The notes beneath the pieces were generated by a model. The model made no database searches. It was given only the letters and a program-made list of their open reading frames with translations, and was not told the origin of the DNA. Below, piece by piece: positions 3,845 to 44,231 of a DNA stretch of 64,000 bases (position 1 is its first letter; each line of letters starts with the position of its first letter). The stretch is from Octopus sinensis (taxonomy: Eukaryota): NCBI RefSeq assembly GCF_006345805.1, contig NW_021829832.1, positions 895,062-959,061 on the forward strand. The letters run 5' to 3'. Made by a program: the position numbers and the translations under genes.

Positions 3845-4567
3845 ATGATGACGTGTTTTTGTTGTTTGTTGTTTTCTCTAATATTTGTTGATTGCTCAAG
3901 TTTATAATTGAAAATCAAACTCGTAGATGAACAATTTGTAAATGTCGGATCTTGTATTAAACTATTGAGTGATCGATATTCTGTTAGACTTCACTCTCAT
4001 GATCTACGATACGGCTCGGGGAGTGGATTGCAGGTTCACTTGATTATTTTTGTATTTGTTCAGTCGGTGACAGGGATAGACTCGGTGACATCGCATAACA
4101 GTCATTGGGCCATCAAATCCGACAATCAAATACACGGGTTGTACATTCAAGTGTTAGTCAAGTGACCACGTTGAGTGCAATTCGGACGTGCAACTAGTCC
4201 ATACAGACACTGGTCAATATCTCCATTCAGAAGACATTCCGTCCCCATTTTCAGGCTGTCAGGAAGTGAGTTGTTCCAACCAATCTGGGGACGGAAATGA
4301 GTGGGTCGTCGAATGCCCCGGAGAGTTCTGGAATAGAAATGACAAAGTGCACTTGCGACATAAATTGACTAACAAGTTTGGATCCTTCTTATATTTTGAT
4401 ATCTTCACGTGTCTGGCAAAAAGTATGGGAACCCACAGGATCAATTCGAGATTTGCGCAGTAAAGGAGAGGTGGAAGTCGACGGGGTGGACTGCAATGGA
4501 GGGGGTCTACGTCGTCAGCAACAGACCTGGGGGGTCGTGGAAGGATCGAGCTTATAATGAACTGTGA
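3845..4567 (+). CDS. SDF2: Stromal cell-derived factor 2-like MIR-domain ER protein (4 introns)
   Basis: Signal peptide; GSCIKL..RLHSHDLRYGSGSGLQSVTG; YLHS; WTAMEGVY; C-terminal YNEL (KDEL-like). Introns of 27, 30, 25 and 23 nt; the last is apparently GT-TG. Confidence 0.9.
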
Positions 4568-5388
4568 TATTGCTTTACATTTTTAATTTTGAATGGAACT
4601 TAAATGATTTTTGGGTTAGTTTTAGACATCCGGTATTAATTCTAAGCCCTCATTTTGTATTCTCTTTGGCAATTTGTTTTTGACATAGTCATTAAAAGTA
4701 TTATGTCAGTATTGCCAACATGAACGAGTTAACTGTTGCCCTGGACAGTGCGAGTTACTCAATTATTATTTGGTATATAAACAAGGAGATTGAAAAAATC
4801 TGAGTGTTTCCTCACTTGCAGGCAGTTTGACATGGAAGGGAGTGGAGCCAACCTCGTCGGTGTGTAGGCCGCAAAGACATGTTTGTTAGGCCGAAATGGT
4901 TAGGCCGAGACGTTGGGAAATTCCGATTCTCAGCGATTCCTCCAAAAGGCAAGCAGCTTCTTATATTAATGTAAATAATATTTATTCTTAAGTTTAAATG
5001 TAAGTGTAGAAAAACAGAAAAAAGTCACTACTACACGTATTTATAACACAGCACTTCTGCGAAGACAGAAACACGTATGTAACTGAGCCTTCACTTGTGG
5101 CATCCATGAACAGAGCAAGTTAACTATTTAATTAATTCCGAGATAGGAGGTCCTTTTAATTTCTCTTTTCTTATAGTTTCTTTGTATTTGAGATAAGTGG
5201 AATAGAGGGAGATCACCTCATCAAAAATACGGAGATGGCTGGGCCTTTTTTCTTATAATAAAAATTACTAATTTATATTAACAGTAAATAATTGAGAGTA
5301 GAAACGCTTAAAATTATTTTATATTAAGACAGCCGCTGTAAAATAAATAAAAAGTCGAGTTCACGTGACTGAAATAATTTCTGTTGCA

Positions 5389-8024
5389 ATGAACAAAACC
5401 AAGTAAAATAAAATAAATATCGAGTTATGGCATCATCGACACTTTCAAGTCAATTTTTACAGGCGGGCCGATTAAAGCAACGAAGGACGGAAAATCGGTG
5501 ATGTGCCTATGCGCTGGCTCACTCAAAGTAATATCCATCTCGACTGGGCGGGAGACCTATTCATTTGCCGAGGTTCACTAAACATCGAATTTGTAGGAAG
5601 AAGATCCCATCACTCAATTCAGTCTTTCCTCAGATGAACAGGTAGTCTCTCCTAACATTCCCAGTTCATACTGACTGCTCACCAAAGTCTGCTTCTCCGC
5701 CATTGGAGTTGGCCAGGGGGGAGAATAAACAAAGTATGGAAGTCGGGACATTCCTCTGCAATCAGTTGCCTCCATGTCCACTCCTCCACACTTGTGTCCG
5801 GGGGGTGTGACCACGTTATTAGACTGTGGGATGTCCAACATTTTTACTGCACTCACACACTGAAAGCACATTCGTCCCCCATCGTGTTAGTACTTGGGCA
5901 TATTCCAGAACATTTCGAATTATCGACCAACTGCTCTTCTCTGTCGGGTCAGAGGGGGAAGTGGTTGTCTTCGGCTTGCTGGAAGGAGATCTGAAAGCAC
6001 GGATCAGTCTCCACACTGCTCCTGTCACTGACTGTACCTTCCACGGACACTACTTCTGCAGGTATGTCGACTTGTAGTACGCAGTGTGTCCAATGACTCC
6101 ACCATGTCCTTGTTCGACCTGCACTCACTCACTTTGGAGAGGTCTCTGGCCACTCACGAGGAAATGCAGGCAGTGCTCTCCACCAAGGATGGGCTGCTCA
6201 CTTTCGGGTGCTGTGGTAGACTTGGTGAGTCATTCATAGGGACTGCTGTTTTGTGGGATGTGGAAAGGTCGTCGATCCTGCGCAAGTCGAAGGTAGGTGA
6301 CTATTCTATCAATTCGGTTGCATTCCTGGGGGAGGAGGGGATGTATATTGCTACCACTACTCACAATACTCTCCTCATCCTCGATCATTCTCTCCAACTG
6401 ATCAAACAGGTGCGAGTCTGTATGTCAGTGCAGATTCCCGGTGACTATGATGGTGTTGTCTCGGTGGCATTTGTGGGGAAGCATTCTCGCAATATTGCAG
6501 TGGCAAGTTCCACTCTGAGTGTCCTCCGACTATTTTCTGTGTTTGGTGGTCATTCGGTCAGTTATACTCATCACACAACTCATCTCCTGGCTGCTCGTCC
6601 CTCTCACGACAAACAATTTATAATTTCTGCGTCGAAGGATGGAATGGTCGTCGTGTGGAGATTCAACGAGGAGGACGAGTCTTTATCTGTGCACAGTGTG
6701 GCCACTGGACATACTTGTGGTGTCAATCTGCTTGATTTTGCACAGTCTGATTGTCGGTGTAATCGAATAGTGGCGGGTCCTTTATTCTGAGTGCCAGTGG
6801 GGAGGATTGTCACGTCAAGATGTGGCCGATGGGGACAAAAGTATTGACTGCCCGAAGGACTGTCCGGGCTCACGCTAAAATGGTGACTGGGCTGGTTATT
6901 TCCCCCAACGACGAACTGTTTGCGACATGTTCCAGAGACAAGTTAATTAAGGTTTGCTTGTGTTGAGAAAACTCAGCTTTGGAATATTTCTAACTTTGAA
7001 TTGGTGTCTCTTTTTCGGGGACACCTCAAAGCTGTAATGTCCATTGCGTTCTCTCCCTTCGACAAAGTCGTGTTTTGTACTGATTATAGGTCCTGGCGAG
7101 TGGCTCTACTGATGGGAGTATTTTCATTTGGTCACTGACAAGTCGCACTGTCCTCCTTACTTTGGACGGGCACGACAAATCTATTCTACACATTCAATTC
7201 ATCAGCAGAGGCACTCAACTCATGACCAGCGGTGGTGATGGACTACTCCGTCTGTGGGCAGTCAAGACAAGGGAGTGTATAAGAACATTCGACGACCACA
7301 AGGAGAGGGTCTATTCCTTTGATTTTAACGCTGATGAATCACGTTTTGTTTCTGCTGGTTCGGACTCGGTCATTCACGTTTGGCGGGATTTGACTGAACA
7401 AGACCGCCAACAAGAATACAACGATAGTCAGGTCCTAAACACCAAGTCTGCATGTCACTTTATTTAATAGAAAGCAAAAGCTGGATAATTATATCAAAAC
7501 TGGCCAAGTCGTGGAGGCCTTTCCTTTGACGCTCGAGTTGGAGAGGCCTCAGTGTCTCCTTCAAATAATTGAGAGTTTTTTTGTTTTTGATTACTTCAGA
7601 ATTATATAAGGACGGGAATTGTGCAGAAATTCTCAGAGAATGTCTCGAGAACTTATCCAGTTCCAATTTGGGTTGTTTTAGCTATTTTCACGCAGATAAT
7701 TTGCTGGATTACTGTCTCGCTTGGAACAGTAATACGAGGACGTGTTTTCATGCACAGCTGGTTTTAGCTGCATTGCTTAATGGAGTGGTACCTGAGGAGT
7801 TGATCTCTAAAGCGGGAAATATCCGCTCAGTTGTGGACGGATTAATTTCATATCAGCAAAGACATTTCCGCAGAGTGTCTAGTTTGGTCGAACAAACGGG
7901 CTTTTTGGAGTTTGTTGCTGCTAATTTTGTTGGGTTCACTTCCGAAAAGTCTGTGGATAGGGACGATGATGTAAATGTCCAATTTGACTTGTCCGACATG
8001 ATTAGAAATAGTGCTGCTCAATAA
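5389..8024 (+). CDS. TBL3: WD40-repeat SSU processome protein TBL3/Utp13 (~13 introns of 22-26 nt)
   Basis: Multiple WD repeats (GH..., LRLW, HVW) and a C-terminal Utp13 domain (LLDYCLAWNSNTRTCFHAQLVL..YQQRHFRRV). The frame is continuous after removing GT-AG mini-introns. Confidence 0.88.
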
Positions 8025-8099: not shown

Positions 8100-11000
8100 C
8101 TAATCTACCATTGATTGATTTTGCAGTGCATGCTGTCAATTGGTGTTGATTTCAGACACCCCGATATAATGCGCATAGTCTTGTTTTGAACTGATTCAAG
8201 TCCCACGCTGGAGCTTGTAGATAAGGAGGGAGGCCAGTCCGGACTTGCGTAACAGTGTCAAGTTGTTTGTGTCGTTGGCCGGAAAGTCGTGAAAATAAAG
8301 GTTGAACAAAATTAAAGACAGGAGTGAATCCTGCGGTTTCCAGTTTAGGAAATCGTGTTGTTTAGAACAATTATCCACGAGGGAGACGTAATCCATGCGA
8401 CACGATAAGAAGTTTGCAAGCCAGGATTTTAGTTTGAGCTTAGATTGTTGCGAGAATTTTGTTGGTGAGACTGCATCGAGGGACGCTGTCAAAAGCCTTA
8501 GAGATTTCGATGAAAGCTAGGATTGTTCATTTTAGCAGTCTCTTCTCATTAAAGCCGTCCATAACTAATTGGGAAAACTTTTTTAAGTGAGTAGCTGTTG
8601 AGTGCAATGGTTCGAAACCATGTTGGAAGTTGGTAAGTGATTGGGTACGCGTAAAAAGATTAGTTTTTCAAGTATTTTAGCTAGCTTGCACAAAAAAAGA
8701 TTGGGCGGTAGGACCTTGGAATGCCAGGCGGTATTTTTTGTTTGATCAATGGAATAATACATGATTTCTCCAGAGAAACGGAATTTTGTTTTTTGCAACG
8801 GAATTGTTGTAAATAGAGACTATGCCATTAATGATGTTAGGGCCAAGTCTCTTAAGGTGATAGATTAAAATGTTGTTATGACCCGTTGCGGAGGAGTTTT
8901 CGAGTTTTTAATATATTGCGAGACTTTGTCTGCAGAAAAAGATGGTATAGTTCCCGTGAGTGATAGCTTTTTCAGAAATTTTGCAACCTTTCGATCATTT
9001 TTGTTAGATGTTTTGTTACTTAATGATGCGTAATATTTCAGTAGCGTATTTGGTGTTTGAATGAGAAATATCAGATTCATAGTATTTTGGCTTTTCATAC
9101 ATCAAACCATTCATGTCTTTAGGGGTCTTCCAGATTTTAGAGCTATTTGATCCGTAGTCGATTGAGACGATAAATTAAGTCCACTTGGAATCTGCGTGCA
9201 GATTTATAGCAGCGGTGATTTGTTAGTTAGAGAACCCGATAAAGTGCTCTTTTATCTGCTTCAGTTTGTTGCGAGTTTATACGAGGCAGTTTATTTCGTA
9301 GCTGTAACTATTGGCGGCTCTGGACGATGCCACTATTGGCGGCTCCCCAGAGACGATTTTAAGAGACGCTTTGTTGTTGGCACCTGCACTTCTGAGGATT
9401 GGATTGGAGATTAACCCCACCAAATCCGAATTAGTCGGTCTCAACATTCCTGATAAACGCCTTGACGACCTTTCATCGTCCCTCCGCACTGGTCTTGGCC
9501 AAGTGCGCGCGACTGACGTAAATGATCTCCGGATCCTTGGATCCCCCATCCTGCCGACTGCTATTAAGACTGATCTTCTTACCAAACATTCCACGTTAAC
9601 TATTTTGCTGGACCGCCTCACGTTTTTGGACAGCCACGTCGGCCTGTTTCTTGCGAGAAACTTTTTCGCCCTGCCTAAATTACTCTACTCCCTCAGAAGT
9701 GCACCTTGTTACCTACATGAGGACATTCTCACTGATCTCGGCGACTCCCTTCGTTCGAAGATCGAATCAATATGCAATGTCGAGTTCGACTCTTTGGGGT
9801 GGAGTCAAGCTTCACTCCCCGTACGCCACGGAGGCCTTGGAATTCGGTGCCCGAATGATGTTGCACTGCCTGCCTACCTGTCGTCACTTTCTTCATGCCA
9901 GAAACTCATGGGCACGGTTCTCCCAACCGATTTTGAACATTACGTGCCTTCTGAGTTATCATCGGCGGTCGTAAAGTGGCACTCGCTAGGACTGGAAATC
10001 CCAGAGGATCAGCATAAGCAATTTGTTTGGGACGAAGTCCGCCTACAATCCCGAATCCATTCTTTACGTAAATCTCTCGACCAACACCGCTTGGCCTGCT
10101 TTGAGACGGCATGTCGCTCTCACAGCGGAGCCTGGCTAAATGCCACTCCACTGCCGAGCATTGGGAACCTTCTGGACTGCGAGTCCGTACGCACTGGAAT
10201 CTGTTTACGTCTCGGTCTTCGCCTATGCGAGCCACATGTCTGCCGCTGTGGCGCGAAAATCTGTCGCTTTGGATTGCACGCTCTATCGTGCAGACGCAGT
10301 GCTGGTCGCATCCCGCGTCACGCCGCTCTTAACGACCTTATCAGGAGAGCCCTGGAAGTCGCCGGAATCCCCTCCTTGCTTGAACCCACTGGGATCGATC
10401 GGGGGGACGGAAAAAGGCCTGACGGGATAACTGTGTTTCCTTTCAACAGGGGGAAGCCTCTCACCTGGGATGCCACGTGTGTGGACTCTTTCTCGCCTCA
10501 GAACCTGCTGATGTCGGCCTCCGCTCCTGGATCTATTGTCACAACCGCGGAATGCAAAAAGATGCGGAAGTACTCCTCACTTACGGAGAAGTTCCAATTT
10601 CTTCCATTCGCGGTTGAGACTTCCGGTTCCTTGGGCAGTAAGACAATCAGCTTCGTTCAGGAGATCGGATCCCGCATGTCTGCCATCACAGGCGACGCCC
10701 GCGAATCGAGATGGTTTTTCGAGCGGATATCCCTTGCGATAGTACGCTCTAATTCTTTCTCGATCGCGTCGGCTTCCCGCACTTGAAGCTTTTAATTAAT
10801 TAACTTGTAGTTATTGGTTGGTTTTCATTAAAAAAAAAGTTTAGCTGTAACTTGGACGGGATTTTTTTATTGTTCCTTAAAGATGAATTTTTGGAATTGG
10901 AAATGATAAGAGGGTTTAGGTGATCGACTGCTGCATCTGTCGAGCGAAAGCTGTTGTTGTTGAAATCATTTAGAAAATTTTTTTGAGCTAGACGGTATTC

Positions 11001-11520: not shown

Positions 11521-11584
11521 TTGTCTACTCGAATAAATATTTTAATTGATTTTTCATTAATTAAACAGTGGTGGATTAGTCAAC

Positions 11585-14500
11585 TTAACATTCGATTTTT
11601 ATTAATTTTGAATCTGCAATGAGTCACTTTACAGAATACGCGTTGGTCGTCTTTTTCTTCGCTCTTCTGGACTCTTCTTGAAAGCTTGACCTGTCTTAAG
11701 AGACTCGAGTAGTGAATCAACAATTCCTTCTTCTCCTTTGGATACTAGGAAAATGTCAAATTGGAGAAAGAAATTCCACCGGTAAGTTTAATTTTCTTTT
11801 TCTCTTCTTCTGCTTTTTCTTTGGCAATTGCAGCTCTTTCTTTCTTTTCCTTGGCAGCTTTTTTTTTAAGGTTGTCTTGGATTGCAGTCTAATAATCAAT
11901 TTTGAAAATCAGGAACAGAGAATTGATCAGTGAAAGTCGTGATAATCGAAAAGAATTCGTTGCATTTTATGGTTTTTTCCGCAAATGCAAAGTGAATAGT
12001 CACGGAGTGATACGTTTTTGTCATTTTCTCAAACATTTTTTCGAGTAATTCTATTTGCCTTTCCATATCTTGGAGCAGTTTCTTTTTCGTGAAGAAACCA
12101 TATTCTAACCTCAAACACTGCCACGAATTGGTCTGCTGGGTCATCCGTCTCATGCCCCGAAACGATTTGAAAAATTTTTTTGTGTTGGTTCTTAAGCATT
12201 TCAAGTGATTTAGTTACATCATCCTTGTTTACTGGCAACTGTAAATGTAAATTTACCAAGTGAAGCTTTCGAGCAAGAAATCAGCTCAGAAGGAAACTTG
12301 GCAGCTTCTGGGCATTTTTTTTCCGTCAACTGAGCAATGTAGTTAAGAAAGTTAATTGAGTTGTCAGAGGATTTTGTGTCCACCAACTTAACTAGACTCT
12401 TGATGTTAAATGCGTAGGTCGCGGAATTCCGCGAATTGGCATTTAGGATGTTTCCCACTGAAAGAATTAACTGAAAAATGTTTCGTAAATTTTCGCTCCT
12501 AACGACTTGTTCAGAAGCATCGGTGACAGTTGCAATCGCCTACGCAAATATCAGATTCAGAATTACAGTTTTAGTCTCCGCCACTAACTCAGGGTAGAAC
12601 ATACGAATGAGAATGCACTCCAGACGTTTGTTGAATGATCGGATTCCTCCGAGCTGAGCAAATTGATTTATAGAGTGCATACCACAGACAAGTATTGCTC
12701 GCATTCTTGAAGCTCCTCCATTTTTCCACTCATTTCATTAAGCATATTTAACTGTTCTGCACTCGGCAAATTCTTGATAAATTGTTCAACAATGTTTTGG
12801 GATATTATTGGAGAGTCAACTGCTAAAAACGCGCTTTTTAATTCTTGAGGAGTTTTTTTTATTTGGCCAAACATAATTGCTGAAATTAAATATTACTGAG
12901 GACAACCAAAATTTTGTGCGACTTTTCCATCCAGAACCCTCAATTCCTTTATTTTTTTTGCAGTTGAAACAGCTGAGGTTGAAGTTTCTAGAACCATCAT
13001 TCTTGCAAACACTACTTGTAGGAGTTTTGGATGCAAATAAGCTAACAGTCATTTCAATTATAGCGTCGTCGATGTATTCCTCGTCATTTAGTTTAGTCCA
13101 CAAAGAGTCTTCATTCAAAACATTTACTTTTAGCTACCAAATGAATTACTGAGTGACTTTGTCCCAATTTAGTCTTTTTGTAGGAGGTTGTTCTTTAGGG
13201 TAGATAGGCTTGGACTTCATTCCAAATGGCAACACTGGCTGGATTCCCTTTCCTCCAATCTGAGGAGGCGAACTCCCTCCCATCATTGGCGGTGGTGGGG
13301 CTACTCCTCCCATCATTGGTGGTGGTGGGACTACTCCTCCCATTATTGGTGGTGGTGGTGGGACTGCTCCTCCCATCATTGGCGGTGGTGGGGCTACTCC
13401 TCCCATCATTGGTGGTGGTGGTGGGACTACTCCTCCCATCATTGGTGGTGGTGGTGGGACTGCTCCTCCCATCGTTGGTGGTGGTACTACTCCTCCCATC
13501 ATTGGTGGTGGTGGTGGGACTGCGCCTCCCATTATTGGTGGTGGTGGTGATGGGACTACTCCTCCCATCATTGGTGGTGGTGGTGGGACTGCGCCTCCCA
13601 TTATTGGTGGTGGTGATGGGACTACTCCTCCCATCATTGGTGGTGGTGGTGATGGGACTGCTCCTCCCATCATTGGTGGTGGTGGTGGTGGGACTGCTCC
13701 TCCCATCGTTGGTGGTGGTACTACTCCTCCCATCATTGGTGGTGGTGGTGGGACTTCTCCCCTCATCGTTGGTGGTGGTACTACTCCTCCCATCATTGGT
13801 GGTGGTGGTGGAACTGCTCCTCCTATTAATGAAGAGACTTTTATACTTGATTCCATCAATTGTGACTGTTCAGGAACCGTTTTCGGGGGTTCAAGTTGTT
13901 TCTGTGATAATACCTTAAATATCAGTTAAAACTGAGTTGCCATTTCTTTTAAACTAGCTTCCAATTTCTCAACTTTAATCTGTAGCAGTGAAACGTTTGT
14001 CTCGAACTCTGACTTTGAAGTAAGTGCGGCAGAAAGCTTATTTTCATATTCTGTTTTTATTTGAGAAATTTCCTTTGCCGACTCTTCCAATCTGTCTTCA
14101 AAGACGGCTAATTGGTTTGAAATAAATGTATGTACAAAGTATTTCTTCAATATCCATTTCGAATAATTTATAGTCTGGATCGGGATCTAAATTACTTTTC
14201 TGGACCACGATCTGACCAACACAACACTCAATTAGTTTGGTGTACAACTCACTAAACTTACCAACATTGACGTTACTGAATCACTGACTCCTCTTTGACG
14301 AATATGAGATGTTGAAAGATGGAAATGAGATTCTTTTCGGTTCTGGATTCGGGGCGGACGTTTTTAAACGTTTCTAAACACATTTCTAGGGAGCTAAGAG
14401 TCCATTAATATCAGAATACTAAAAATCTTTTTTGCACTCCTCTAGTGAGTTGCTGAAAGCTTTAAAGTCGTTTTCTTTAACTTCGTCGAAAATCTTTACA

Positions 14501-15642
14501 TGGCTTCGAACTTCCTCATCCGGTGAGTCTTTTAGGGACTAGATTGAACAGAGAAATCACAACTTGAATCATTTCACCCAATCCCATTCGCATAAACTCT
14601 GCTCGGAGATGGTGGCGGAAATCCCATTCGTCAGGAGTTGCCACAATCGCATTAATAAGTTGAAGACAAATAGACTTAAAAATCCCCCATTAAAAGTAAA
14701 CTCTCAATTGGGGATAGTTTTCTTGTCTTACCCCTTCCATGATTGGTTTGAATCGCGGAATCTGTCTCTTCTGGGAAAAGACAGTCAAATCATTTAGCAA
14801 TAAATTATGACTGGAATGGGTTAGAAGATGGTACCCGTTTGGATAAAGAGTGATTACTGCCAAGATTCGCATTACTTCAAAAGAAAGAGTCTCACATCCA
14901 AACTGTGTGCACTCAAACAGACTGCAGATAAAGTTTTTAAACGAAAAGGCTTCTTCGAGTCCATACTAATCTAAGTAACTGAGGACAACTCGAGAGTTTA
15001 TGAATAATGAAATGCAGCGAACGGCTTCGATGGAACAGCCAATGTCCTTTGACCTAGTTTATCATCATTAATCACATTTTACGTGCTCTTTAATGCAACG
15101 TTGATTAGCAACTCCAGTCCTTCTCGTCCGAATGATTTGATCCACCTGCAAGTCTCCACAATCTACACTGTGCCTAAGCTGATTGCTCTGCAAATTGACT
15201 CTTAGTTTTTTGAGCAAGTTCAGTTTTTTGTTGTGTTTCCAGTCCGCATTCTTTATCTCCTCAGTAATATTTTTTGGGTCAAATATTTCTAACTGGAAAC
15301 ATAGAATATTAATTGATACAGCCGTGGTCTGATGCTTACTCAATCGTAGCATGTTAATCTTTTGCTCTATCGACTGGTCTCTGAGGGGCAGTCGTTTTTC
15401 GTTGGTCAGGTTCATTTCATCCTAAATTAACATTTTTAAACTTAACCATTAGGTTTTCAAATTTATCGACAAGCTCTTCAACGCTCAGTTGAGTGAAATC
15501 ATCTTCAATGTCACAAGTACTCTCACAAGTTTTGAGATCCTCGGTTTTTTTAATTCCACGTTTTTTCTTTACTCTCAAATTAAATTTCTATGGAGTTGAT
15601 AATTTTTAGAATATTGAGTATCCGTACCTTTGAGTTCTCCAT
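11585..15642 (-). CDS. DIAPH: Diaphanous-related formin (GBD/FH3-FH1-FH2-DAD), ~20 mini-introns
   Basis: MNLTNEKRLPL; LRVNLQSNQLRWIKSFG; FRHHLRAEF; polyproline FH1; KRLNWDK; GNILN; LVDTKS; DAD motif GIVDSLLESLKTGQAF followed by a basic stretch. Confidence 0.9.
13270..13812 (-). repeat. Coding tandem repeat forming the formin FH1 domain (about 15 units of ~30-39 nt)
   Basis: Repeated P4-6-(M/I/T)MGG(A/V)V units visible in both DNA and protein. Confidence 0.95.
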
Positions 15643-26575: not shown

Positions 26576-27227
26576 TCAGTCATTCTCTAAAATAATAAAA
26601 TATAAACGTAAAATGGTTTGTGAATATTTACCGTTTATTTTCCTGACACATACGGGAAATTTTTTCAGGACACACTTTTGATAATGAAGACATTTCACAT
26701 TTTGACAGGACTCTGAATATAATTCAATAATGCATAACCGTAGCATTTTCCGAAGTAGTTAGTTCGAATGTATTTTTTTCTGAGACACTGCATGTATACC
26801 AATTCACATAAATTCATAAAGGTCTCATTACTATCCGAACAAAGGCTCAATTTTGTTTTAGTTTTGCAAGTTCTACATTCACAGACACTTTCTCCGTTTT
26901 TAATAACGCATTGTTGGTCTTCCGAGCAAACAATATTTCCACATTTCCCTGTATTCGTACACTGGCAAATACTTTCACACAACTGCGCGTCTTCAGGGCG
27001 GAGTAGCAAATATTTAAAGAAGTTCATTCCGTCGAGTGGAATTTCGGAGAAGTGATAGTTGACATCGGAATCTCTTTCAAGAGAACAGCACTCAAATTTG
27101 GAGATATCACTCATGACAAGTACGTTATTGTCGACGTCTGATAGAAGCCAACAGTATCCACCTATTTTTTATTAGTATTGGGCATACAAGAAACTGAGCT
27201 TATTGCAAACAGAGCATGAAAGAACAT
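26576..27227 (-). CDS. FST: Follistatin-like secreted protein, truncated (N-domain, one full FS module, partial second)
   Basis: Signal peptide MFFHALFAISSVS, then GYCWLL..ISKFECC, FOLN plus Kazal (LCSDSNETFMNLCEL...YFGKC), and a second FOLN. Introns 24-26 nt. Confidence 0.75.
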
Positions 27228-27499
27228 TGTGTGAACGGCAATTACTACTTATTTTATAGTCAGAGAGACGTACTTTAGATGATAGACATTGATTACTCAC
27301 TTCACCACAATTGGTGTTTTAATCATATTTAAAGCCTAAAGTTCACAGATTAGAAAACACCGGTTTAATGGAAAAAGTCTAGAAAAAGAATATGTTTTTA
27401 TTATCCAAACAAGAAAAAATATCCGACAAATTAGCGTTTAGAGAGCTTGAAAACGAGAACCACAAAGGTCTCAACTGCAGTTTTGCCCTGGGAGATTTT

Positions 27500-33221: not shown

Positions 33222-36200
33222 ATGAATTTGGCAGAGTGCATGGATACGAGGCAAGCCAGTCTTGTTACCAACTTGGAAGGATTGAGTGTGTCCAGCATTG
33301 CACACTCCTCCAAAAATATATCACTTGCCTTGGAAGATAGCGTACAGCTGATTTTCCTCTTTTAGAATTCGGCCCTCACCAAGTGGATTACTACCCATTT
33401 CACGCGCAGTCGATGTAAACGATTCGTTCCACTCGACACGTTGATACATGTGCTAATTCTCACAGAAATCCTACTCTATGTTTCTGCAACAACTCTATGT
33501 CACAACATACCAAAGCTGCTATTAATCGAGCAGCTTCTTTTCCATGGCACCCTCAAGAGGACACGGAAGCAATTCCTACTGATGCATTCGGGGAAATTGA
33601 GTTTTCCGGATATGGCAGTCGACTAGCTAATGTACATGTCTACGTGTAACATCTAGTATATTTGCATAAGACAAAATACAGACATGGATTTGATGATCAA
33701 GCTGTTTTTAGATGTCTGGAATGTTCCAAAACCAAACCTTCTTATCTCGGTGACAGGTGGGGCCAAGAGTTTCACTATGGCCCCGAAACTGAAAGACATT
33801 TTCAGAAGTGGACTAACAAAGGCCGCGACCAGCACAGGTAAAAATTATCTTCATCTTTTAGGAGCATGGATCATAACCGGAGGAATGAACGCGGGGGTGA
33901 TGAAGCACGTAGGGGAAGCGATAAAACAACACAACCTCATGTCTAACAGCAATAAGAAAGTACCCTGCATTGGAATAGCCCCGTGGGGATGTGTCGGACT
34001 CAGACACCAACTGATATCCCCTGTGGTGAGTGCCTTCTTTAATTATCAGGGAAAATGGCCAGCCTCTTATAGAATGACCGACGTATCAAACCTTCACAAG
34101 AACGAGACACTTTTGGACGACAATCACACGCACTTTTTATTCGTCGACAATGGCACATGCCACAAGTACAGAGTGGAGATCGAGTTCAGGGCAAAATTTG
34201 AACAACATCTTACGAACATGAAAACGTCGAAGGAAGGTGACTTTGAGCATCTAATTCAGGGGGACTGCGAATTCCAATCATTCTGCTCGTATTAGAAGGC
34301 GGGATCGGGACGCTGGAAACGGTGGCAACTTCTATAAAGAGGAGAACTCCTGCTGTAATTGTCGAGGTAGTTTTAATAGCTTAAATGCAGGGATCGGGAA
34401 GGGCTGCTGACGTGCTGGCCAAGATATATTACAAAATGACAAGTCTCTTTTCTCATTAATTTAAGGCGACATGGGAGTCCATTTGCACGAATTCATAAAA
34501 AATCTGATTCAAGTCGAGTTTGGATCAAAAAATATCGACGATATGGTCGAATTTGCTAAGAACTGTTTCATAAACATGGATTTGATAACAGTCATTAGTC
34601 TTAAAGAAAACGACGAGATCGACACTGCATTGTTGAAGGCGCTATTTACAGGTCTGCCCAACATAACGACCCAAAAGCGAACAAGGATCACGCGATTACT
34701 CAACTAAAGTTAGCCCTTGTTTGGGACAGAATCGAAATGGTCCGAAACGAGTTTCTTTTTTCCAAGACTGCCTTAATCGATGTACATCACAAAGTGTTCA
34801 TTTTAGTTGGAAGAAGTCCTGCACTCGGCCATTCTCCTTGGGAGAACCAGGTTTGTTAAGTTCATATGCGAAAACGGAGTTGATTTGAAGCATTTCCTGA
34901 CTGCGAACAGACTTGTCCGACTATATAATCAGGTGAAAGTCAAGACTTTACTGATTAGATTCCGCCGCGTTGCCAGCTTGCAACTCTTTTGCAAAAGTCG
35001 AAAAGAACTGGTTTTCTTTGGTCAATCTTTAGTGCTACGGAGACTATGTTTCCTTGAAGGACGTTGGTCTACTCATTCAGCATATGTTGGGAGAGTTTTT
35101 TAAGCCTCTATATTTGACGGATTCCCGATACTCGCAATTAGACGCTAACTTTATAATGCGGACATATCAGAGAAGAAGGGGTTTGGTCTTCTAATCATTT
35201 AGACGACGCTTCGTTTGAGGTTGACGATCCCTATCAAGAGTTGTTCATTTGGTCAGTTTTGATGGGACGCGTCCTTCTAGCACACTACTTTTGGCTGGAG
35301 GGGAAGGCAGGACCGAGTACTAACTCACTAGACGGGTGTCATGGCTCCTTTATTCGCGTCTTCATTGTTATGTAAACTCAGCAAACTGACTAACGACCAC
35401 GAACTCGCAGCATTTTACATATCTTACAAGCAGTAAAATTCATCTAACACTACTACAGTACGTATATCGAGTTAGCTTTGGGAATCATCAATGAGTGTTG
35501 GAAGTGCGACGAACAGAGAGCCCATCAAGTCATTTTGAGGGAACTTCCACACTTTGGAGAATGCAGTCCGTTAACAATCGCATTCCGAACCAACAACAAG
35601 GACTTTGTAGCGCACTCCTGCACTCAGTCGTTACTGACCAAAATATGGATGGGCACCATATCGGAAGACACATCCATATCTCAAGTTATAATGCAATTTT
35701 TAGTCTTAGCTTATCCTGTGTAATTTTTTGCCCATCGTGATCCCATTTTTCATTAAATTTGACCACCCCGAAACATTAAAAGTTGTGAAAATTCATTAAT
35801 TTCCCAGAATACAAAGAGCATCGACATGGTGAAAGACAAGCCACCACTATTAAATAAAGTGACTCGATCAGTCGAGAAAATCAAGAAATTCTACTCGGCT
35901 CCGGTGATCATTTTCATGTCAAATTGCGTATTTCTAAAATTTTCATCGAAGTTCAACTACTTCTTGTTTCTGCTGCTTTACAGTTATGTGCTGCTCGTGG
36001 AGTATTCTAACGTGTTTTCCATCATCGACCTGATTCTCTCGATTTTCGTGGCGAGTCTCTTTGTTGAAGAGTCCCGCCAGGTGCTGCCCTAACTAATTCG
36101 CAGTTTTTGTCAGGAAAGAATATTGGCCTCAAAACTAAGCTAAAAGATTATTTCACGGACTTTTGGAATATATTAGACTTTTCGAGTGCAATCATCTTCG

Positions 36201-37294
36201 CGGTGGGACAGTCAATTCGGTTTTCGTCTTACTGCTCCTTCAACAACCCGACGTGCTTCGATATTGCCAAGACAATTCATTCAATTTCGCTTATTATATT
36301 CTTTATTCGGCTCCTGCACATATTCTCTGTAAATAAACACTTGGGCCCAAAGGTGATCATGATCGGAAAAATGGTGAATTTTTGGCCTGATTATTTGAGG
36401 TGGTGGATCTCATTATTTTCGCGGCCATCCTCATGGTCTTTATGGTTTCGTTCGCCATCATTCAACACGCAATTCTCTACCCCAATTCGGAACTGACCTT
36501 GAAACTGCCTTTCTCAGTCTTCTCAATGGCCTATTGGCAGATTTTCGGGGAACTCTTCCTTTCAAAGATCCAGGGTACCAAATGCCGGATCAACTCTTCC
36601 CTAGCAACAGAGGTGTCAGGGACCTGCAGTTTTAATAGCAGTCTTTATAACACGGGACAGATCTACCGGTGTCCATCAACAAGCGGGGTTTATGTTATTC
36701 CCATTCTTCTTGGATTCTACCTAATATTCACAAATGCACTGATGCTCAATCTACTCATTGCCATGTTTAGGTAACAATGATTGACTACATTAAGCTACAC
36801 TTTTACGAAGATACAGGAATCCACCGACAAGCATTGGTATTTTCAGAGATATCAACTTATCTACGAGTACTACAACCGCTCCAACCTGGCTCCTCCCTTC
36901 ATTCTCCTCTCGCACTCGACCGCACTCATTCAGTTCATCATTGAGTACTTGATCAAAAAGAGAGGAAAAAAATCAGACGGTTGGTTCTGCAGCTAATTGT
37001 CAAGAATCGGGAGACGAACTTGCCAAGCAGCTTGCCTTGTGGGAAAACATGAGAGCAGACGATTTTCTGAGGACGTGCCCACTTGACTCGGAAAAAAACT
37101 TGCCTACGAAGATGACCGAACTCCAAGAAAAGTGAAATTGTGCTGATTTATTCAAGTCTCAATGAAATAAAATTAGACATTGAGTCATCTCAACTCGATC
37201 AAAAGGCATGTTTTACGAGTATTTTAAAGTATTTTAATCGCAGGTTGACCTGATCATGAATAGAGTGAGCGCTCTAATCGACAGCATCGAGTAA
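33222..37294 (+). CDS. TRPM: TRPM cation channel (>20 mini-introns)
   Basis: [81 protein letters not shown] box [13 protein letters not shown]-terminal coiled coil. Last exon uncertain. Confidence 0.93.
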
Positions 37295-37419
37295 TTAGCC
37301 TTGTTAGATAACTAACGAATTGTTGGTTGAAACACGTTTTATCCACTATTTCACATAAGAATAATTTAAAATTGATCACTTAGTAAATATTATTTCTCTT
37401 TCGACAAATTAAGCAAGAA

Positions 37420-38033: not shown

Positions 38034-38837
38034 TTGATGATTAAATTATTTAAATCCGCATTGTACCTATAACCACCTTTATGATTATGTAAAAAAAATT
38101 TTTATTGCATTTAATTCAACACTAAAAAGTCAAATGTAGCTAACCTAACAGTACCAGGGTTGACATCGGCAGACAATCTTAAGCTCTTAAGGGAACTATC
38201 GAGGAAAAGAGGAACTGGAAACGATCAACAAACCGTATCCAGGAGACGGTAGCCCAAACGAGATAACTTTATTAAAATTTTTTTGTGGTGTGCTTATTAA
38301 TAATAAATAATAATAATGCAATCGTTAAGGAGAGTATATATGAGAACAACATGGATAATCAACACAAATTCTTTATTCGCCATCTTTATAAGCAATTATC
38401 ATGAAGACTGTTTTTAGAATTCCAAACATGACCGAATAAAATAGGCAATGATTGGATACCTCTTGTAATGCTTATCCCTAAAATGAATATATGTACTAGA
38501 CTAATCTCAAATTGGAAATTACTTTAATTGCATTCAATAAATAGTTATATTAATTATACAGACAAAAAAACAGTCTTGGGATTGTGCTCCTCTCAATTGC
38601 TCTTAAATTAAAATCGACTATTACTAAATGAAGAAATGAAAAACCAATAACAATTAGAAAACTAGCAAAATCCAAACAAAGATGACAGGATGGAACAAAT
38701 TTCTTATATCAACCCTCACAGCACGAGTCAATCGATTAGCATAAACAAAAGATAAGAAATCATTAATATTAAATTTTCAAGCATTAGATGATGTGCACAT
38801 AAAAAGAGACTATATTTTGAAGATCAATTGGTGTTGT

Positions 38838-39503
38838 CTAATACGATTTCTCCTCCTGAAAGTCCTCATATGATTCTAGACTCCCCCAAAAACGCTTCTT
38901 TGGAAAAATTGGGGACTTTAAAGAAAAGTCAGACATAGATCCGTTTGAATGGGGACTTTCTGGACTGGAAAAAACGGAATTTGTAACATCAACTAGTCCT
39001 TTCCTTCTGACCCGAGGATTATTACTCAGGGATGTAGACTTGAATTTTTTTCTAAAATTTTTGTCAATCACCAGATTTTTGGTGGATAGACTTTGGCCCA
39101 CATTTGGAGACTCATGCTCTTGGAAATTATGCAAATGGAGAAATCCTGGGTGAGCTGGATCGTATTTAGTGTACGCTGATAAATTGGAGGTGGAAGAATT
39201 TTCGAACACCGCATTCCATCCAAGAGTAGAATTAATTTTCAACTCAGGGGGGTCGTCTTTCTCGAAAAAACCAATTTTGTGCATTATCCTCAATCGTTCT
39301 GTTTTTATATCACAGGGGCTCTCCCATAACGCATACTTCCGGTACTTCCAGCCATGAATCTTGTCAAAGCGATCGGAGGGGAAGTTGGGTGTTAGCGGGG
39401 AATCAATTTTTATTTGATCAAAAGAAAGATTGAATCGATCACACATCGACAGTTTATAATTGACGACGATTGTGCTTTTAACGGCGAGACGCCAAATAAT
39501 CAA
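38838..39503 (-). CDS. Hypothetical protein with a putative D-box and SP sites
   Basis: 221-codon ORF in AT-rich context; RKGLVDVTN fits RxxLxxxxN; true start uncertain. Confidence 0.55.
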   Translation of the reverse strand: MIIWRLAVKSTIVVNYKLSMCDRFNLSFDQIKIDSPLTPNFPSDRFDKIHGWKYRKYALWESPCDIKTERLRIMHKIGFFEKDDPPELKINSTLGWNAVFENSSTSNLSAYTKYDPAHPGFLHLHNFQEHESPNVGQSLSTKNLVIDKNFRKKFKSTSLSNNPRVRRKGLVDVTNSVFSSPESPHSNGSMSDFSLKSPIFPKKRFWGSLESYEDFQEEKSY

Positions 39504-39837
39504 TACTCACTAAATCGACGTCTGACCATTAAATACAGACATATGAAACACTATCGGAAATTTGATGTGTTAAGACGGAAGTAGGCTTTAAAATAACCTC
39601 AGACAACAATTACTGTCATTTCGAATGTTAATCGTTCTGCCCATGATTAAGCATTTTAGCATTGAACTGACTCCAATTATCCAAACTTGCACAATAATTG
39701 AGTCATAACAAGACTTCTCATTAAGTCATATTACCTTTATTGTTTTACAAAACTTGTGGTTAAATCAGGAGAATCATGATTGTTTAGGTTGTTATTAACA
39801 TATACTACAACTAAATCATGCTAATTAAAATTATTTT

Positions 39838-42220
39838 TAATAATTAGACGACTCTCAAATTTTTGCTTCCCGAGTTCCCCATAACTCCACTTTGATCTTC
39901 TCCGCCATGATCCTCAATCTCCGCCTGGGGCGTGCAGTCTCTGGGCCTCTTAAGGGACTTGCTGATCTTCATAGAGAAATTATATTTCCGCCAGTCCCTA
40001 TTTACGGAATTTGCAGAGTCCAGAATTTCACTGAAGCCATGTTTGTACTCGACAAACATGCTCTCCAGAGTGGCCTTCAGCGTTACAGTCTGGATGTAAG
40101 ACCGAACACGTTCTTCAATCCCAAGGAGCTCCATGTACTTGCGGTAGATTGTTGAAACGATTCCATCCCACGTAATGACAATTGGCACAATCTTCACCTT
40201 AGCCTTGTGAATCAGTTGTAATTCACTAGCTAAAATGTCGTATTTGTGCAGTTTTTTTACTTCCACACTCTTTAGGTTATCTATTGAAGTCACACCCACT
40301 TCAATAAGCCATATTAGGTTCTCTCTTTTGTCGTAGAGGAAAATATCGGGTTTGTTATATTGAATCTTCAACTCTGTTGGAATTGTTGTATCAACTCGTA
40401 TTTCTGCCAAGGTGTTGCACATAATACTCTGGACAGAGTGATTTTTCAGTCTTCTGGATTTTTTGAATCCAAATCTACGGCACAAGTTCATGTGGATGCA
40501 TCTCACAATTTCATTGTGTCTTCTCGTATAATCCGAATTAAGCATCCTGTTGCATCTAGTTGCCATGTGATCAACCGTCTTATTGGAAGATTTACAGTGT
40601 GGACATTTTGAATTAGGGTCTCTGAAAAAAATATTCCTGTCTTGAAGAAATGAAAACATAGCTTCAGATTTAGGAGATATATTTCCTTTCTTAAGCCATG
40701 TTGAAGACGATTGAATATCAAAATTGTTATCATCAAGGGATTCAAATAGCTTCGAGTGAAGTGTTTTCTTCTTGATATTGGACAGTAAGGAATCAATCTG
40801 CAATCTATTCAGTGAGTTGGTTATCTCTTCTTGGGTGTTCGTTCCATATTTACAATGCAGGAATTCTGTGATCGTGGCCATATGGGATTTTCTTTTCTGC
40901 TCGGCCCACAGAATTGCTGCCTTTCTTGGGGAGATTAACTTTCGCCTCTCCAGATTTTCACGAAAGTCAAACAGCATTTTTTCCGACCTGAAGGTAATCG
41001 AGGCAAGCCCTCTTCCAAGTTTATCCCTCGGCAAATATAGCCTTTCCTTACAGGCTGGTTTCATATGAATATTTAGATCCATTAACAGCTTCCTGACAAA
41101 TTTGTCAATTTCATCAAAAACGGGCGGTTCCAAATCCAGAAGGCCGATATAATAATTGTACAAAGATAAGGCATGTTCATTAATTGCCTTAAACAAATTC
41201 ACCGAATTTAGTTTCGTCTTCGACAATCTTTCGATACGTTGTTGAACCTCAATCCGTAAATTTTTCAAAACTTCTTCTTTAACAACCTGACTAAACTTAT
41301 TTTCCAATACACCCAAATAACGGTAACTATCCAGTCCATCCAGCAGTTTGGCATCATTTCTTAACAAACAACTATTCGTTGCCGACTTCTCACAATTCTT
41401 TTCCAAACCCGAAGCTTTAAAAAATAAATCCACGTCTTTCATCATACACCCGAGTGTGACCTCATCTTTGGCGAGCAGTTTCAAATCATCAATGAACAAA
41501 AAATGGTTCGTAGAAAAAAACACTGAATTTTCTTGATTGGTATTGACTGATAAATTTGGGTATTTAGCCGATAACAATTTGCTCAACGGATCCAAAGTAA
41601 AAATGAACAACTGAGGAGACAGGGAATCTCCTTGGAGTATTCCACGTTCTATGTTAACAATTCCTAGATGCTGCTTTCCTAATTTGAGGGAGACCTTCCA
41701 ATTTGGAATTATTGACATTACAAACTTTGTTATCCATTCAGGAAGCCCTGAGTTTTTCAGAATAACTGTAAGGAATTCGTGATTGATTGAGTCAAAGGCT
41801 TTTTTTACGTCTACCCATGAAGAAAATAATTTGTACTCATGTGACCTGTTCACACAACAGTTAATAAGTGCTTGCTCCTTTGCACCTTGACAATGCCTCT
41901 TAGTGCCAAGTTGACACTCAGAGATTAGATCGTATACTTCCACATACTCAGCAATTTTCTCATTTACACACTTTGTGACGAGTTTATAAAGGCACGGCAT
42001 ACAGGTAATTGGTCTGAAATCACCGGCTTCAGTGGAATTATCCTTTTTCGGAATAAGATAAGTTACCCCGGTATAAAACCAACTCTGAGGTTGACTGCTT
42101 CCAGTAATGATATTTCTGATCTCATCAAATAGAAATTTATGTAGGGAGTCCAATTTTTTGATGAAGAAGTTGTAAACTCCATCGCAGCCAGGAGCTTTCC
42201 AGTTGGGGAGAAATTCGATA
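39838..42220 (-). mobile_element. R4/Dong-like non-LTR retrotransposon (RT, CCHC, RLE); 5'-truncated with intact frame
   Basis: WKAPGCDG, FRPITC, DVKKAFDS, RGILQGDSLSP, LFIDDLKL, RLYLPR..GRGL, CPHC..H..C, YTRRH and NKPDI..IEVG. Confidence 0.92.
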
Positions 42221-42377
42221 ATGTTTAAAATGAAGAACAAGAGAATATGAACCATATAACAAAAAAAGAGAAACGAGGGAAGATGTGCTTAAATGGTGAG
42301 GGAACTTAGACAACAGCTGAACAAGGTCAGGACTGCTGTTAGACTCAACTACGGGTAATAGAATTATGCATTCTAGG

Positions 42378-43308
42378 TTAATTGTTTGGGATGAATGTAC
42401 GATGGCTCATAAAGGCGCATTCAAGCAGTTGACCGAACATATAGAGATATCAAGAATTGTAGCGACCATTTGTTTGGGGGAGCATTAGTTGTATTGGCAG
42501 GTGATTTTAGACAGACGCTGCCAATTATTCAAAGAGGGACGCCAGCGGATGAATTGAATGCCTGCCTCAAATCGTCATATTTGTGGACACACGTGAAAAA
42601 GGTTAGCTTAGATGTAAATGTACATGCACATTTACAAGGCGTTAATAGCATATTCCCACAAATCCTTCTAGATATTGGAAATGGGGCAATCACTTCAGAA
42701 ATGCACGACCAGAAAATTAGGCTACCGGAAGAATTATGTATTTTCGTAGAAACAGCAGAAGAATTATTGAATGCCGTCTATTCCGAACTATCTGAACACT
42801 ACGTGAATTTTGACTGGCTGCGTGAACGAGCTATATTAGCTCCACTTAATGATGAGGTACTTAATATAAATTTAGATTTATTAATGAAAATCCCTGGCAG
42901 AGAAAGAATATATAAATCGGTCGACGTTATTATGGACCATGAAAGGGCCTGCGATAGATTTAAGAGACTACAATTTCCGCTGAAGATAAGTTTTGCTATG
43001 ACAATAAACAAGGCCCAGGGACAGTCTTTAAAGGTAGTAGGCTTATTTTTAGAGAACGAGTGCTTTTCACATGGCCAGCTGTATGTGGGGTGCTCAAGGG
43101 TAGGTAGAAGAGAAATTTATTTATATTTGCCAAGGATGGACGGACTGCAAACATCGTTTATCCACAGGCCTTAGAATAAGGTTATATCAAAGCAGGTCGC
43201 ATTTATATATCTACATAAATTTATAGTTATTTAAGGAAACTGCGAGCGTAGCGAGCAGGGCCTCCGCAGGAGCTAGCTCGCAGTGAGCGAAGCGAACTGC
43301 TGAGCTAG
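42378..43308 (+). mobile_element. Helitron 3' remnant (PIF1-like helicase, internally deleted) with terminal hairpins and CTAG
   Basis: LIVWDECTMAHK, FGG..LAGDFRQTLP, RAILAP, FAMTINKAQGQSL and HGQLYVGCSRV; GC-rich stems at 43240-43300; ends ctag|t at 43305-43309. Confidence 0.85.
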
Positions 43309-43560
43309 TTTTTAATAATTCAAAATACTACAATAAAAGCAATAATTTATCTAATTTTCAATTCTCTTTAAAATCAATAAATAACAAAATTTATCTCACT
43401 TCTTATTGCCTGTCTCGCATACATGAAAGTAAATTAAATGACTCAAAGTTTTTCCCAAAGTGGGATCAAGCGGTTTGAATAAACGGGGCAGATCAAATTC
43501 CTTTAAGAAATTTTAAATAACTAATAAAAATTATATAATTTAAAAATAAATAAACTTGGA

Positions 43561-44231
43561 ATGTTCTATCATGTGTGAGCCTCGCATGCTCTATTTGTTT
43601 ATAGATTAGCCTGGAGCACAACATTCTTTTGCATCCCAGAAACTTTGGTTCCAAACTAATGGATACAGTGAAGCGTCTACTGTTCTACGAAGTGGAAGGG
43701 TCTTGTTCTGGAAGGTTTGTCAGTGGCACATACGTGTAGGTACGGGTACATAATATCCGTGACCAATATCAACACAATTGGCGACGGAGTGCTTATCCCC
43801 GGGAAGGGACTCGCTTCGTTTTCCGTTTCCTACAAGGCCGTAGTCTTCCGCCCCATCAAAGGACAAGTGATTGATTCCTCGGTGACGCAAGTGTCGGAGC
43901 TGGGAATTTTCGCTAAGGTGGGGCCTCTCAGTGTTTTCGTGTCGAAGCATGTATTGTCTGAAATTTATTGAAGAATATTCCCCACCAACTGAGTTTCCAC
44001 AGAGACGAACGTTATTCCTGCTATCGAGACGACGAATCAGTAAGCTACGATTGCAATTTGGCAGACCACGATAATCTGTCAGGACACGGCCATAAGAATG
44101 AAAATTATTGGGATTCGTCTGGACGCTAAGGAAATAGTATTTTTGTCAGTAATGTTTAGTATGTCGTCGGGTCGTTGGCTGGGGACTATCTGGGTTGGTT
44201 GTAGTAAATATATATGGTAGGAACTGTCTGA
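43561..44231 (+). CDS. POLR2G: RNA polymerase II subunit RPB7
   Basis: [53 protein letters not shown]. Introns at 43573-43604, 43715-43739, 43951-43973, 44040-44064, 44137-44159, and optionally 44194-44220. Confidence 0.95.

What the first reader, a model, noticed from the sequence alone, without database searches (positions are those of the whole stretch)
3845..44231. Pervasive ultra-short introns with almost no splice-signal information, suggesting length-defined splicing in an animal
Seen: roughly 70 introns reconstructed by hand across SDF2, TBL3, formin, follistatin, TRPM and RPB7, nearly all 22-32 nt (RPB7: 32, 25, 23, 25, 23, 27). Donors share little beyond GT (gtctgc, gtacag, gttgtg, gtcgtg). 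Acceptors include AAG and GAG, and a pyrimidine tract is often absent (gtctgcccaacataacgacccaaaag). Known: such sizes occur in Paramecium, nucleomorphs, microsporidia and dicyemids, far below the usual metazoan minimum. Inference: a reduced spliceosome that measures intron length.
Basis: partly seen in the sequence, partly recalled or inferred. Interest (0 to 1): 0.75.

Follow-up and report, generated by a model that had tools for sequence, protein, structure and literature searches.

The report
Tiny introns of a dicyemid parasite
This DNA most likely comes from a dicyemid, a tiny kidney parasite assembled together with its mollusc host; its 22-30-base gene interruptions sit where the host's long introns sit and are very likely real introns, an already published trait of these parasites, and a faint, likely branch-point signal makes length alone a poor guide to them.

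Summary
I rebuilt 65 introns in five of the six genes; 64 are 22-32 nt (median 25). Removing them opens full reading frames. Nine of 16 intron calls in the host's TRPM gene (618-16,372 nt) fall at the same place and phase as 23-26-nt segments here. No RNA evidence was available.

The window is on an unplaced contig of a 2.7-Gb mollusc assembly. The contig shares composition and repeats with contigs carrying a Dicyema-type RPS13, so it is very likely a co-assembled dicyemid, apparently not D. japonicum. Such introns, with minimal splice signals, are published for dicyemids (2007, 2019, 2026).

The 'length-measuring, reduced spliceosome' reading is only partly supported. Same-length GT..AG decoys outnumber true introns 138 to 39. 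Length alone recovers 12-17 of 42 introns; weak signals raise this to 30. A T-n-A motif sits at positions 16-18 (275 of 506; shuffles at most 145), a likely branch point that would explain the 22-nt floor. U5, U6, U1-70K and SF1 are present on parasite-class contigs; the parasite's U1 and U2 were not located. The scan noted this trait before on other pieces of this genome.

The parts
3845..4560 (+). SDF2-like (MIR-domain) gene; introns 3900-3926, 4034-4063, 4138-4162; a probable fourth at 4376-4398 ends in TG (1-nt assembly loss or non-canonical acceptor); gene end approximate
   Evidence: MIR; SDF2-like 3mal, E 5e-12
5389..8024 (+). TBL3/UTP13 gene; 12 introns of 23-26 nt: 5573-5596, 5642-5664, 5886-5908, 6062-6084, 6216-6239, 6410-6433, 6745-6770, 6952-6976, 7067-7089, 7446-7470, 7575-7599, 7672-7695; start uncertain (5389 or 5501)
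   Evidence: WD40, Utp13; 745-codon frame with one final stop; from my gene model, no orthologue available
11629..15642 (-). Diaphanous-type formin; 20 introns of 24-35 nt, two needing GC donors (15173-15146, 13940-13914)
   Evidence: open frame of 1139 codons, hand-curated; Drf_FH3 44-79 then 81-117; FH2 88-150, 183-274, 320-372 on exons 1, 3 and 5 of a run of five
26695..27450 (-). Kazal/follistatin-like gene; one intron placed (27187-27162, 26 nt), 5' part not resolved
   Evidence: (Kazal_2, below cut-off)
33222..37294 (+). TRPM channel gene; 24 introns of 22-32 nt, four of them in-frame without a stop (33838-33861, 34026-34049, 35928-35951, 36575-36604)
   Evidence: positions shared with host TRPM
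35307..35331 (+). GC-AG intron of 25 nt with TACTAAC (A at position 17) in TRPM; the host donor lies after the matching residue
   Evidence: without it the alignment needs a frameshift
43561..44231 (+). RPB7 gene; introns 43573-43604, 43715-43739, 43951-43973, 44040-44064, 44137-44159 and probably 44194-44220
53457..64000 (+). exact second copy of 29212-39755, which includes the TRPM gene and its introns
   Evidence: no mismatch after position 29211 at offset 24,245

Best explanation
The window is very likely DNA of a dicyemid parasite co-assembled with its mollusc host, and its 22-30-nt GT-AG segments are very likely ordinary major-class introns, shrunk in place, that a largely conventional spliceosome would pick out by adding up several weak cues within a narrow size window.

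Shown here: the segments, the open frames after removal, the positions shared with the host's long introns, a second organism in the assembly, the T-n-A motif at intron positions 16-18, the decoy excess, and canonical U6, U5 loop 1, U1-70K and SF1 on parasite-class contigs.

Inferred: (1) the A at 16-18 is the branch adenosine; (2) a lariat loop of at least about 16 nt plus a tail of at least about 6 nt sets the sharp floor at 22 nt, so length is a geometric limit and a partial filter, not a ruler; (3) the intron is recognised as one unit (intron definition) from a G-rich last exon base, GT[AT], T-n-A-Y, a short Y-rich stretch, YAG and T-rich content; (4) the spliceosome must assemble differently from the human one, which needs about 50 nt between donor and branch site; (5) remaining mistakes are probably handled by protein factors or by decay of mis-spliced RNA.
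For: Two organisms. The window is on a 959-kb unplaced contig in a 2.72-Gb assembly. G000 has two RPB7 genes at 49% identity, two 18S types (1,667 nt AT-rich against about 2,600 nt GC-rich) and molluscan haemocyanin on chromosomes.

Link to the window's contig. A 5-mer score puts held-out stretches of C6303, the RPS13, short-18S and U6-variant contigs at +0.016 to +0.039 and 12 host loci at -0.125 to +0.003. 10 of 15 stretches from those contigs share repeats with C6303 (82-99.7% identity), against 0 of 10 chromosome stretches.

Dicyemid identity. The RPS13 on C7758/C10384 has the three intron positions printed for D. japonicum and, by my reading of the printed codons, its unusual stretch YGVPNISRCASNKVLRILKKN (supplement of PMC13644364). 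Its introns are 27, 26, 25 nt against 24, 24, 24, and its sequence differs.

Intron reality. 9 of 16 host TRPM intron calls match within 3 columns and in phase; random expectation 0.84, maximum 6 in 20,000.

Contig-wide. A self-trained model that started from a flat length prior and had no position-specific signals gave 681 introns in 88 genes: 610 at 22-28 nt, 9 below 22.

Branch-like signal. A at position 17 in 64% of 128 23-nt introns (shuffles at most 31%). T-n-A at 16-18 in 275 of 506 model introns (shuffle mean 117, maximum 145), 31 of 49 homology-defined introns and 18 of 95 decoys.

Signals beat length: AUC 0.93 against 0.70.
Against: No RNA reads were laid, so splicing and branch points are inferred.

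Even all signals together miss 12 of 42 introns, and non-GT/AG information is only 2.8-4.1 bits, so something further is needed. Only about half of the introns carry T-n-A at 16-18, and the peak blurs for 27-28 nt.

The contig-wide set is model output. In TRPM the signal-free model matched my curated list exactly in 11 of 17 calls. It also narrowed its own length prior while training, which can sharpen the 22-nt floor. The TBL3 test introns come from my own model.

The taxon rests on a gene from other contigs, linked by composition and repeats, not on a marker inside C6303. The 5-mer score misplaces some 3-kb host loci. The parasite's U1 and U2 were not found. Three GC donors, one TG end and one 32-nt GAG intron could be assembly errors.
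Confidence: 0.85

Rival explanations
1. A reduced spliceosome measures intron length and needs only GT and AG.
For: Very narrow size range: 610 of 681 at 22-28 nt. Donor information only 0.5 bits, 179 different donor hexamers in 610 introns. Length alone gives AUC 0.70 inside 22-28 nt. Parasite U1 and U2 not located.
Against: 138 same-length decoys against 39 true introns; length-only scan 12-17 of 42; flattening length within 20-32 nt costs nothing once signals are used. Position-fixed T-n-A. U5, U6, U1-70K and SF1 present.
Confidence: 0.1
2. The segments are not introns but assembly errors, pseudogene decay or retained inserts.
For: Parasite contigs in a host assembly can carry indel errors; one SDF2 segment lacks its AG and the TIR-like gene nearby needs irregular joins. 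No RNA evidence.
Against: Positions and phases match long host introns and recur in two TRPM paralogues. Five genes open fully or nearly fully on removal. cDNA-verified dicyemid introns of this size are published (PMC2222250, passages).
Confidence: 0.02
3. The contig is from another short-intron passenger (a myxozoan or a ciliate) or from the host itself.
For: Myxobolid myxozoans have 22-27-nt introns with the same reduced signals (PMC13644364). No named marker lies on C6303 itself.
Against: The host has its own RPB7 and TRPM with long introns. The standard code with TAA/TAG stops and a Shaker-type channel argue against a ciliate. The RPS13 on linked contigs matches the D. japonicum sequence and intron pattern; I did not view the myxozoan rows of that alignment.
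Confidence: 0.04

Closest known systems
Ultra-short introns of dicyemids: Dicyema acuticephalum (PMC2222250, passages: mean 26.2 nt, n=16, genomic and cDNA), Dicyema sp. (PMC6543705, passages: median 27), D. japonicum (PMC6736024, passages: mean 38; PMC13644364 main text and supplement rows: median 24, Q10 22, minimum 20)
   Same: Size, ancestral positions kept, about 5-6 introns per gene, 5' signal reduced, 3' signal reduced, weak A stretch whose distance from AG grows with intron length, repeat-rich genome at about 37% GC.
   Different: Apparently another species than D. japonicum (RPS13 differs; introns 25-27 against 24 nt). Donors here are GTT more often than GTA (244 against 203 of 610) where the paper gives 'GTa'. 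Here the A signal is resolved as T-n-A at positions 16-18 and tested against decoys; PMC2483917 (passages, 41 introns) saw no branch signature.
Myxobolid myxozoan introns (Henneguya salminicola, Thelohanellus kitauei, Myxobolus spp.; PMC13644364, main text read)
   Same: Median 22-27 nt, reduced signals, weak A residues, conventional spliceosome parts retained (U2 and U2AF there; U5, U6, U1-70K, SF1 here).
   Different: Cnidarian lineage, independent origin; U2 and U2AF were not established for this parasite.
Stentor coeruleus 15-16-nt introns (PMC9505925, passages)
   Same: Branch A at a nearly fixed position with a short tail; canonical U6 ACAGAGA box.
   Different: Ciliate; loop 10-11 nt and tail 5 nt against an inferred 16-18 and 6-8 here; position almost invariant there, only about half here.
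Human major spliceosome on short introns (PMC6692369, passages)
   Same: Same catalytic RNAs and GT/GC-AG ends.
   Different: Needs about 50 nt between 5' splice site and branch site; the inferred distance here is 16-18 nt.

Membership tests
Major (U2-type) spliceosomal introns | GT/GC...AG ends whose removal restores the reading frame | tested here: met
   65 introns: 62 GT-AG, 3 GC-AG; open frames; one further SDF2 segment ends in TG
Major (U2-type) spliceosomal introns | Positions homologous to introns of other animals | tested here: met
   9 of 16 host TRPM intron calls shared, 3 more on one boundary. RPB7 gave no shared position: the host gene has one 6,674-nt coding intron elsewhere
Major (U2-type) spliceosomal introns | Branch adenosine upstream of the 3' splice site | tested here: inconclusive
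   T-n-A at 16-18 strongly enriched; statistical only, no lariat data
Major (U2-type) spliceosomal introns | Removed from transcripts | not testable with these tools
   No run was available to lay on the window
Major (U2-type) spliceosomal introns | U1, U2, U4, U5, U6 snRNPs encoded by the same organism | tested here: inconclusive
   U6 in 3 and U5 in 11 of 12 parasite-class loci, U1-70K and SF1 with tiny introns; U1 and U2 lists held only chromosome or host-class copies where checked; U4 and U2AF not searched
Dicyemida | Sequence affinity to Dicyema genes | tested here: met
   RPS13 on linked contigs shares start, unusual residues and the retained/lost intron pattern with D. japonicum; by inspection, no tree built
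Dicyemida | Lives in a cephalopod host | tested here: inconclusive
   Host is a mollusc (PF14830 on C5 and C28); cephalopod is inferred from the long 18S (recalled trait) and from dicyemid host range
Dicyemida | Window's own contig belongs to the same organism as the marker contigs | tested here: met
   Same 5-mer class and shared repeats; more than one dicyemid species in the assembly is not excluded
Dicyema japonicum | Near-identical RPS13 gene | tested here: not met
   Exons and all three intron lengths differ
Purely length-defined splicing | Length plus GT/AG suffices to pick the introns | tested here: not met
   12-17 of 42 exact; 138 decoys

The most novel reading that the evidence does not exclude
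This dicyemid splices on a fixed '16 + 6' geometry: a branch A about 16-18 nt from the donor and at least 6 nt from the end. That geometry, not a length ruler, sets a hard 22-nt minimum. Since the human B complex needs about 50 nt for the same span, an animal spliceosome with canonical U5 and U6 has evolved another assembly route. The largely unannotated parasite genome inside this assembly is a second species in which to find the responsible changes.
Probability: 0.45. Interest if true: 0.5.

Novelty: already known. Interest (0 to 1): 0.18.

Why it matters
As a discovery it matters little: 22-30-nt introns with minimal signals are published for dicyemids, and a 2026 paper gives their splice-site logos and the weak A stretch. 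Two points are of practical use. First, many unplaced contigs of this host assembly are parasite DNA and would mislead host gene annotation, while offering long contigs of a dicyemid other than D. japonicum. Second, how such introns are recognised is stated as open in PMC13644364; the position-fixed T-n-A motif and the decoy test turn that into concrete predictions for lariat sequencing and reporters.

Tried and rejected
RNA: no RNA holder was listed for 30000-37400; this is no evidence either way.

Homologue searches: RPB7 exon gave 1 protein; the TBL3 exon gave generic WD40 proteins and no orthologue; the formin exon gave none of 186 candidates. TBL3 and formin introns therefore rest on open frames, my gene model and Pfam continuity.

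Host RPB7 has lost the comparable introns and was no use for positions.

A paper search for an 18S primer fragment together with 'dicyemid' found 0 papers, so the short 18S was not assigned by primer.

U1 and U2 searches returned the best 42 and 48 candidates, nearly all on chromosomes; the U1 on unplaced C9998 is a truncated copy in host-class DNA. Rfam scans of 150 kb of C6303 found nothing, and scans around the U5 and U6 loci found no U1 or U2.

The TRPM profile on C9075 gave a poor, unusable parse.

Early model rounds were polluted by retrotransposons and antisense parses and were redone after masking.

The scan used a list with one wrong TRPM intron; it was corrected and one uncertain last intron dropped (42 introns).

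In-frame stop-free introns look depleted (57 of 166 3n against 277 of 444 others), but the model under-detects exactly these, so I draw no conclusion about decay-driven selection.

Ogino et al. 2010 was seen only as cited in PMC6543705. Figure-only supplements (logos S7, S9) could not be viewed; they may already show the branch position I report.
Full report
Where the window comes from. It is G000:C6303:895062-959061, the end of a 959-kb unplaced contig in a 2.72-Gb assembly with chromosome-size pieces. The assembly holds two organisms. There are two RPB7 genes, the window's and one on C1 at 49% identity with a single 6,674-nt coding intron. There are two 18S types, about 2,600 nt and GC-rich on chromosomes, and 1,667 nt and AT-rich on C1618. 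Chromosomes C5 and C28 carry molluscan haemocyanin. U1-70K and SF1 each occur once on a chromosome and once on an unplaced contig.

Which passenger. A 25-base motif from the D. japonicum RPS13 start, printed in the supplement of PMC13644364, matches four places on C7758 and C10384 with one mismatch; the reversed control matches none. That gene has introns of 27, 26 and 25 nt at the three positions where D. japonicum has 24-nt introns, lacks the two that D. japonicum lacks, and shares its unusual residues by my reading of the printed codons. The sequences differ clearly, so it is a different dicyemid. A 5-mer score separates held-out C6303 stretches and the RPS13, short-18S and U6-variant contigs (+0.016 to +0.039) from 12 host loci (-0.125 to +0.003). 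10 of 15 stretches from those contigs share repeats with C6303 at up to 99.7% identity, against 0 of 10 chromosome stretches. The assignment of the window to a dicyemid is thus indirect but strong.

Are the segments introns? A protein-guided alignment with a flat intron cost returned the RPB7 sizes 32, 25, 23, 25, 23 against the host protein. With a 27-nt sixth intron the protein is 171 aa. For TRPM, a profile of 30 of the 150 homologues placed 20 introns: 16 of 23-26 nt, and four longer calls in poorly conserved stretches, of which I kept one (32 nt) and shortened three. The curated 24-intron model, open up to its last exons, scores 1209 bits against 444 for the best unspliced frame; retaining any of the seven 3n introns lowers the score by 2-16 bits. 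In the host TRPM on C17, 9 of 16 intron calls (618-16,372 nt) fall within 3 columns and in the same phase as a window intron of 23-26 nt, and three more match on one boundary. Random placement gives 0.84 on average and at most 6 in 20,000 trials. Formin opens to 1139 codons with 20 introns, and Pfam coordinates run on across the junctions. TBL3 opens to 745 codons with 12. In all, 65 introns: 64 at 22-32 nt, median 25.

Contig-wide picture. A self-trained gene model began with a flat length prior and used only GT/GC, AG and base composition. On 509 kb of unmasked parasite-class DNA it gave 681 introns in 88 genes: 610 at 22-28 nt, 9 below 22, 37 above 35. The model is imperfect and learns its own length prior, so the floor may be sharpened. 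The homology-defined TRPM, RPB7 and RPS13 set gives the same picture: 3 at 22, 11 at 23, 9 at 24, 14 at 25, 12 at 26, with three calls under 22 in poorly aligned places. The published D. japonicum figures are minimum 20, Q10 22, median 24.

How much signal is there? Little, but not none. Relative to coding composition (591 introns): last three exon bases 0.42 bits, +3..+6 0.50, -6..-3 0.72, interior 1.25-1.61, total beyond GT/AG 2.8-4.1. Acceptors are TAG 289, CAG 203, AAG 79, GAG 39 of 610. The interior signal is a T-n-A-Y motif whose A lies at position 16 in 22-nt introns, 16-17 at 23-24 nt, 16-18 at 25 nt and about 18-19 at 26 nt. It is present at 16-18 in 275 of 506 model introns (shuffles mean 117, maximum 145), 31 of 49 homology-defined introns and 18 of 95 decoys. 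I read it as the branch point; this is inference. A loop of 16 plus a tail of 6 equals the observed floor of 22.

Does length define them? In 7,184 nt of TRPM, RPB7 and TBL3 pre-mRNA there are 138 unused GT..AG segments of 22-28 nt, 106 wholly exonic, against 39 true ones. A frame-blind scan, trained without the window and the TRPM paralogues and tuned to introns, recovers 12-17 of 42 by length alone, 19 with the branch term, 24 with the donor, 27 with the acceptor, and 30 with all terms. It still recovers 30 when length is flat within 20-32 nt. Length is therefore a window, and weak signals do the choosing. Twelve misses remain, so further factors or surveillance probably contribute. That the decoys are unspliced in vivo is assumed.

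The machinery. Parasite-class contigs carry a U6 with intact ACAGAGA box and internal stem-loop and only a shortened 5' hairpin, a 106-nt U5 with intact loop 1 (11 of 12 loci in the parasite class), and U1-70K and SF1 genes that themselves have 21-29-nt introns. The parasite's U1 and U2 were not located because host copies fill the result lists; U4, U2AF and minor-spliceosome RNAs were not searched. Nothing here shows a reduced spliceosome. The human enzyme needs about 50 nt from donor to branch site (PMC6692369, passages), so some adaptation is likely but unidentified.

What is known. PMC2222250 (passages) reported 26.2-nt dicyemid introns from genomic and cDNA clones. PMC2483917 (passages) gave dicyemids the weakest 5' score, 0.5 bits, and saw no branch signature in 41 introns. 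PMC6543705 and PMC6736024 (passages) gave genome-wide sizes. PMC13644364 (main text read through the results and part of the references; supplement rows searched; logo figures not viewable) showed 'GTa' and 'AG' only, and weak A residues that move away from AG as introns lengthen, in D. japonicum and myxobolids. Earlier notes of this scan on other pieces of the genome reached the same assignment; I read them after forming mine.

Verdict. Real, very likely dicyemid, already known. The modest additions are a second species, the position-fixed motif with its 16 + 6 reading, and the decoy test. Interest 0.18.

Noticed in passing
window 29212-39755 and 53457-64000: A 10.5-kb block with the TRPM gene is repeated with no mismatch at offset 24,245 up to the contig end; a very recent duplication or an assembly artefact.
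   Followed up: partly
window 35307-35331 (+), 15173-15146 (-), 13940-13914 (-): Three GC-AG introns among 65 are needed for open frames; the signal-free model, which penalised GC, called only 2 of 610.
   Followed up: partly
window 4376-4398: A probable SDF2 intron ends in TTTTG instead of AG: a lost base in the assembly or a GT-TG intron.
   Followed up: partly
window 29985-32119 and 32397-33132 (+): Unnamed multi-intron coding region ending in FDVFISYRR, which recalls a TIR domain (recalled motif, not tested); the parse has irregular joins and may be broken or continue into the next block.
   Followed up: no
window 44405-45598 (-): Intronless Shaker/Kv1-type channel in an animal described as lacking nerves; matches the Rfam potassium-channel editing signal RF00485.
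   Followed up: no
G000:C10696:17000-20800; C6303:341400-345300; C9075, C10832, C12291: Two further TRPM genes with tiny introns, and separate loci matching the C-terminal part (residues 1344-1570) of homologue P0005, which the window's TRPM lacks.
   Followed up: partly
L017, L133, L134 (C2675, C12638, C2687): Parasite U6 has a minimal 5' hairpin (4 pairs) but a canonical core.
   Followed up: partly
L176-L186: At least 11 slightly different U5 copies of about 106 nt on parasite-class contigs.
   Followed up: partly
window 9308-10786, 16766-22899, 37380-38045, 39844-42288, 47588-51721: Many LINE-like reverse-transcriptase frames, plus a helicase-like fragment at 42413-43174 and an integrase-like fragment at 24946-25383 (labels from reading the translations, not tested); 43% of the first 52.7 kb was masked as repeat.
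   Followed up: no
window 779-1072 (-) and 38838-39506 (-): An intronless tandem CCCH zinc-finger gene and an intronless 222-aa frame with no Pfam match.
   Followed up: no
L047-L050 (C7758, C10384): The dicyemid RPS13 start occurs four times on two contigs, suggesting duplicated or redundantly assembled regions.
   Followed up: no
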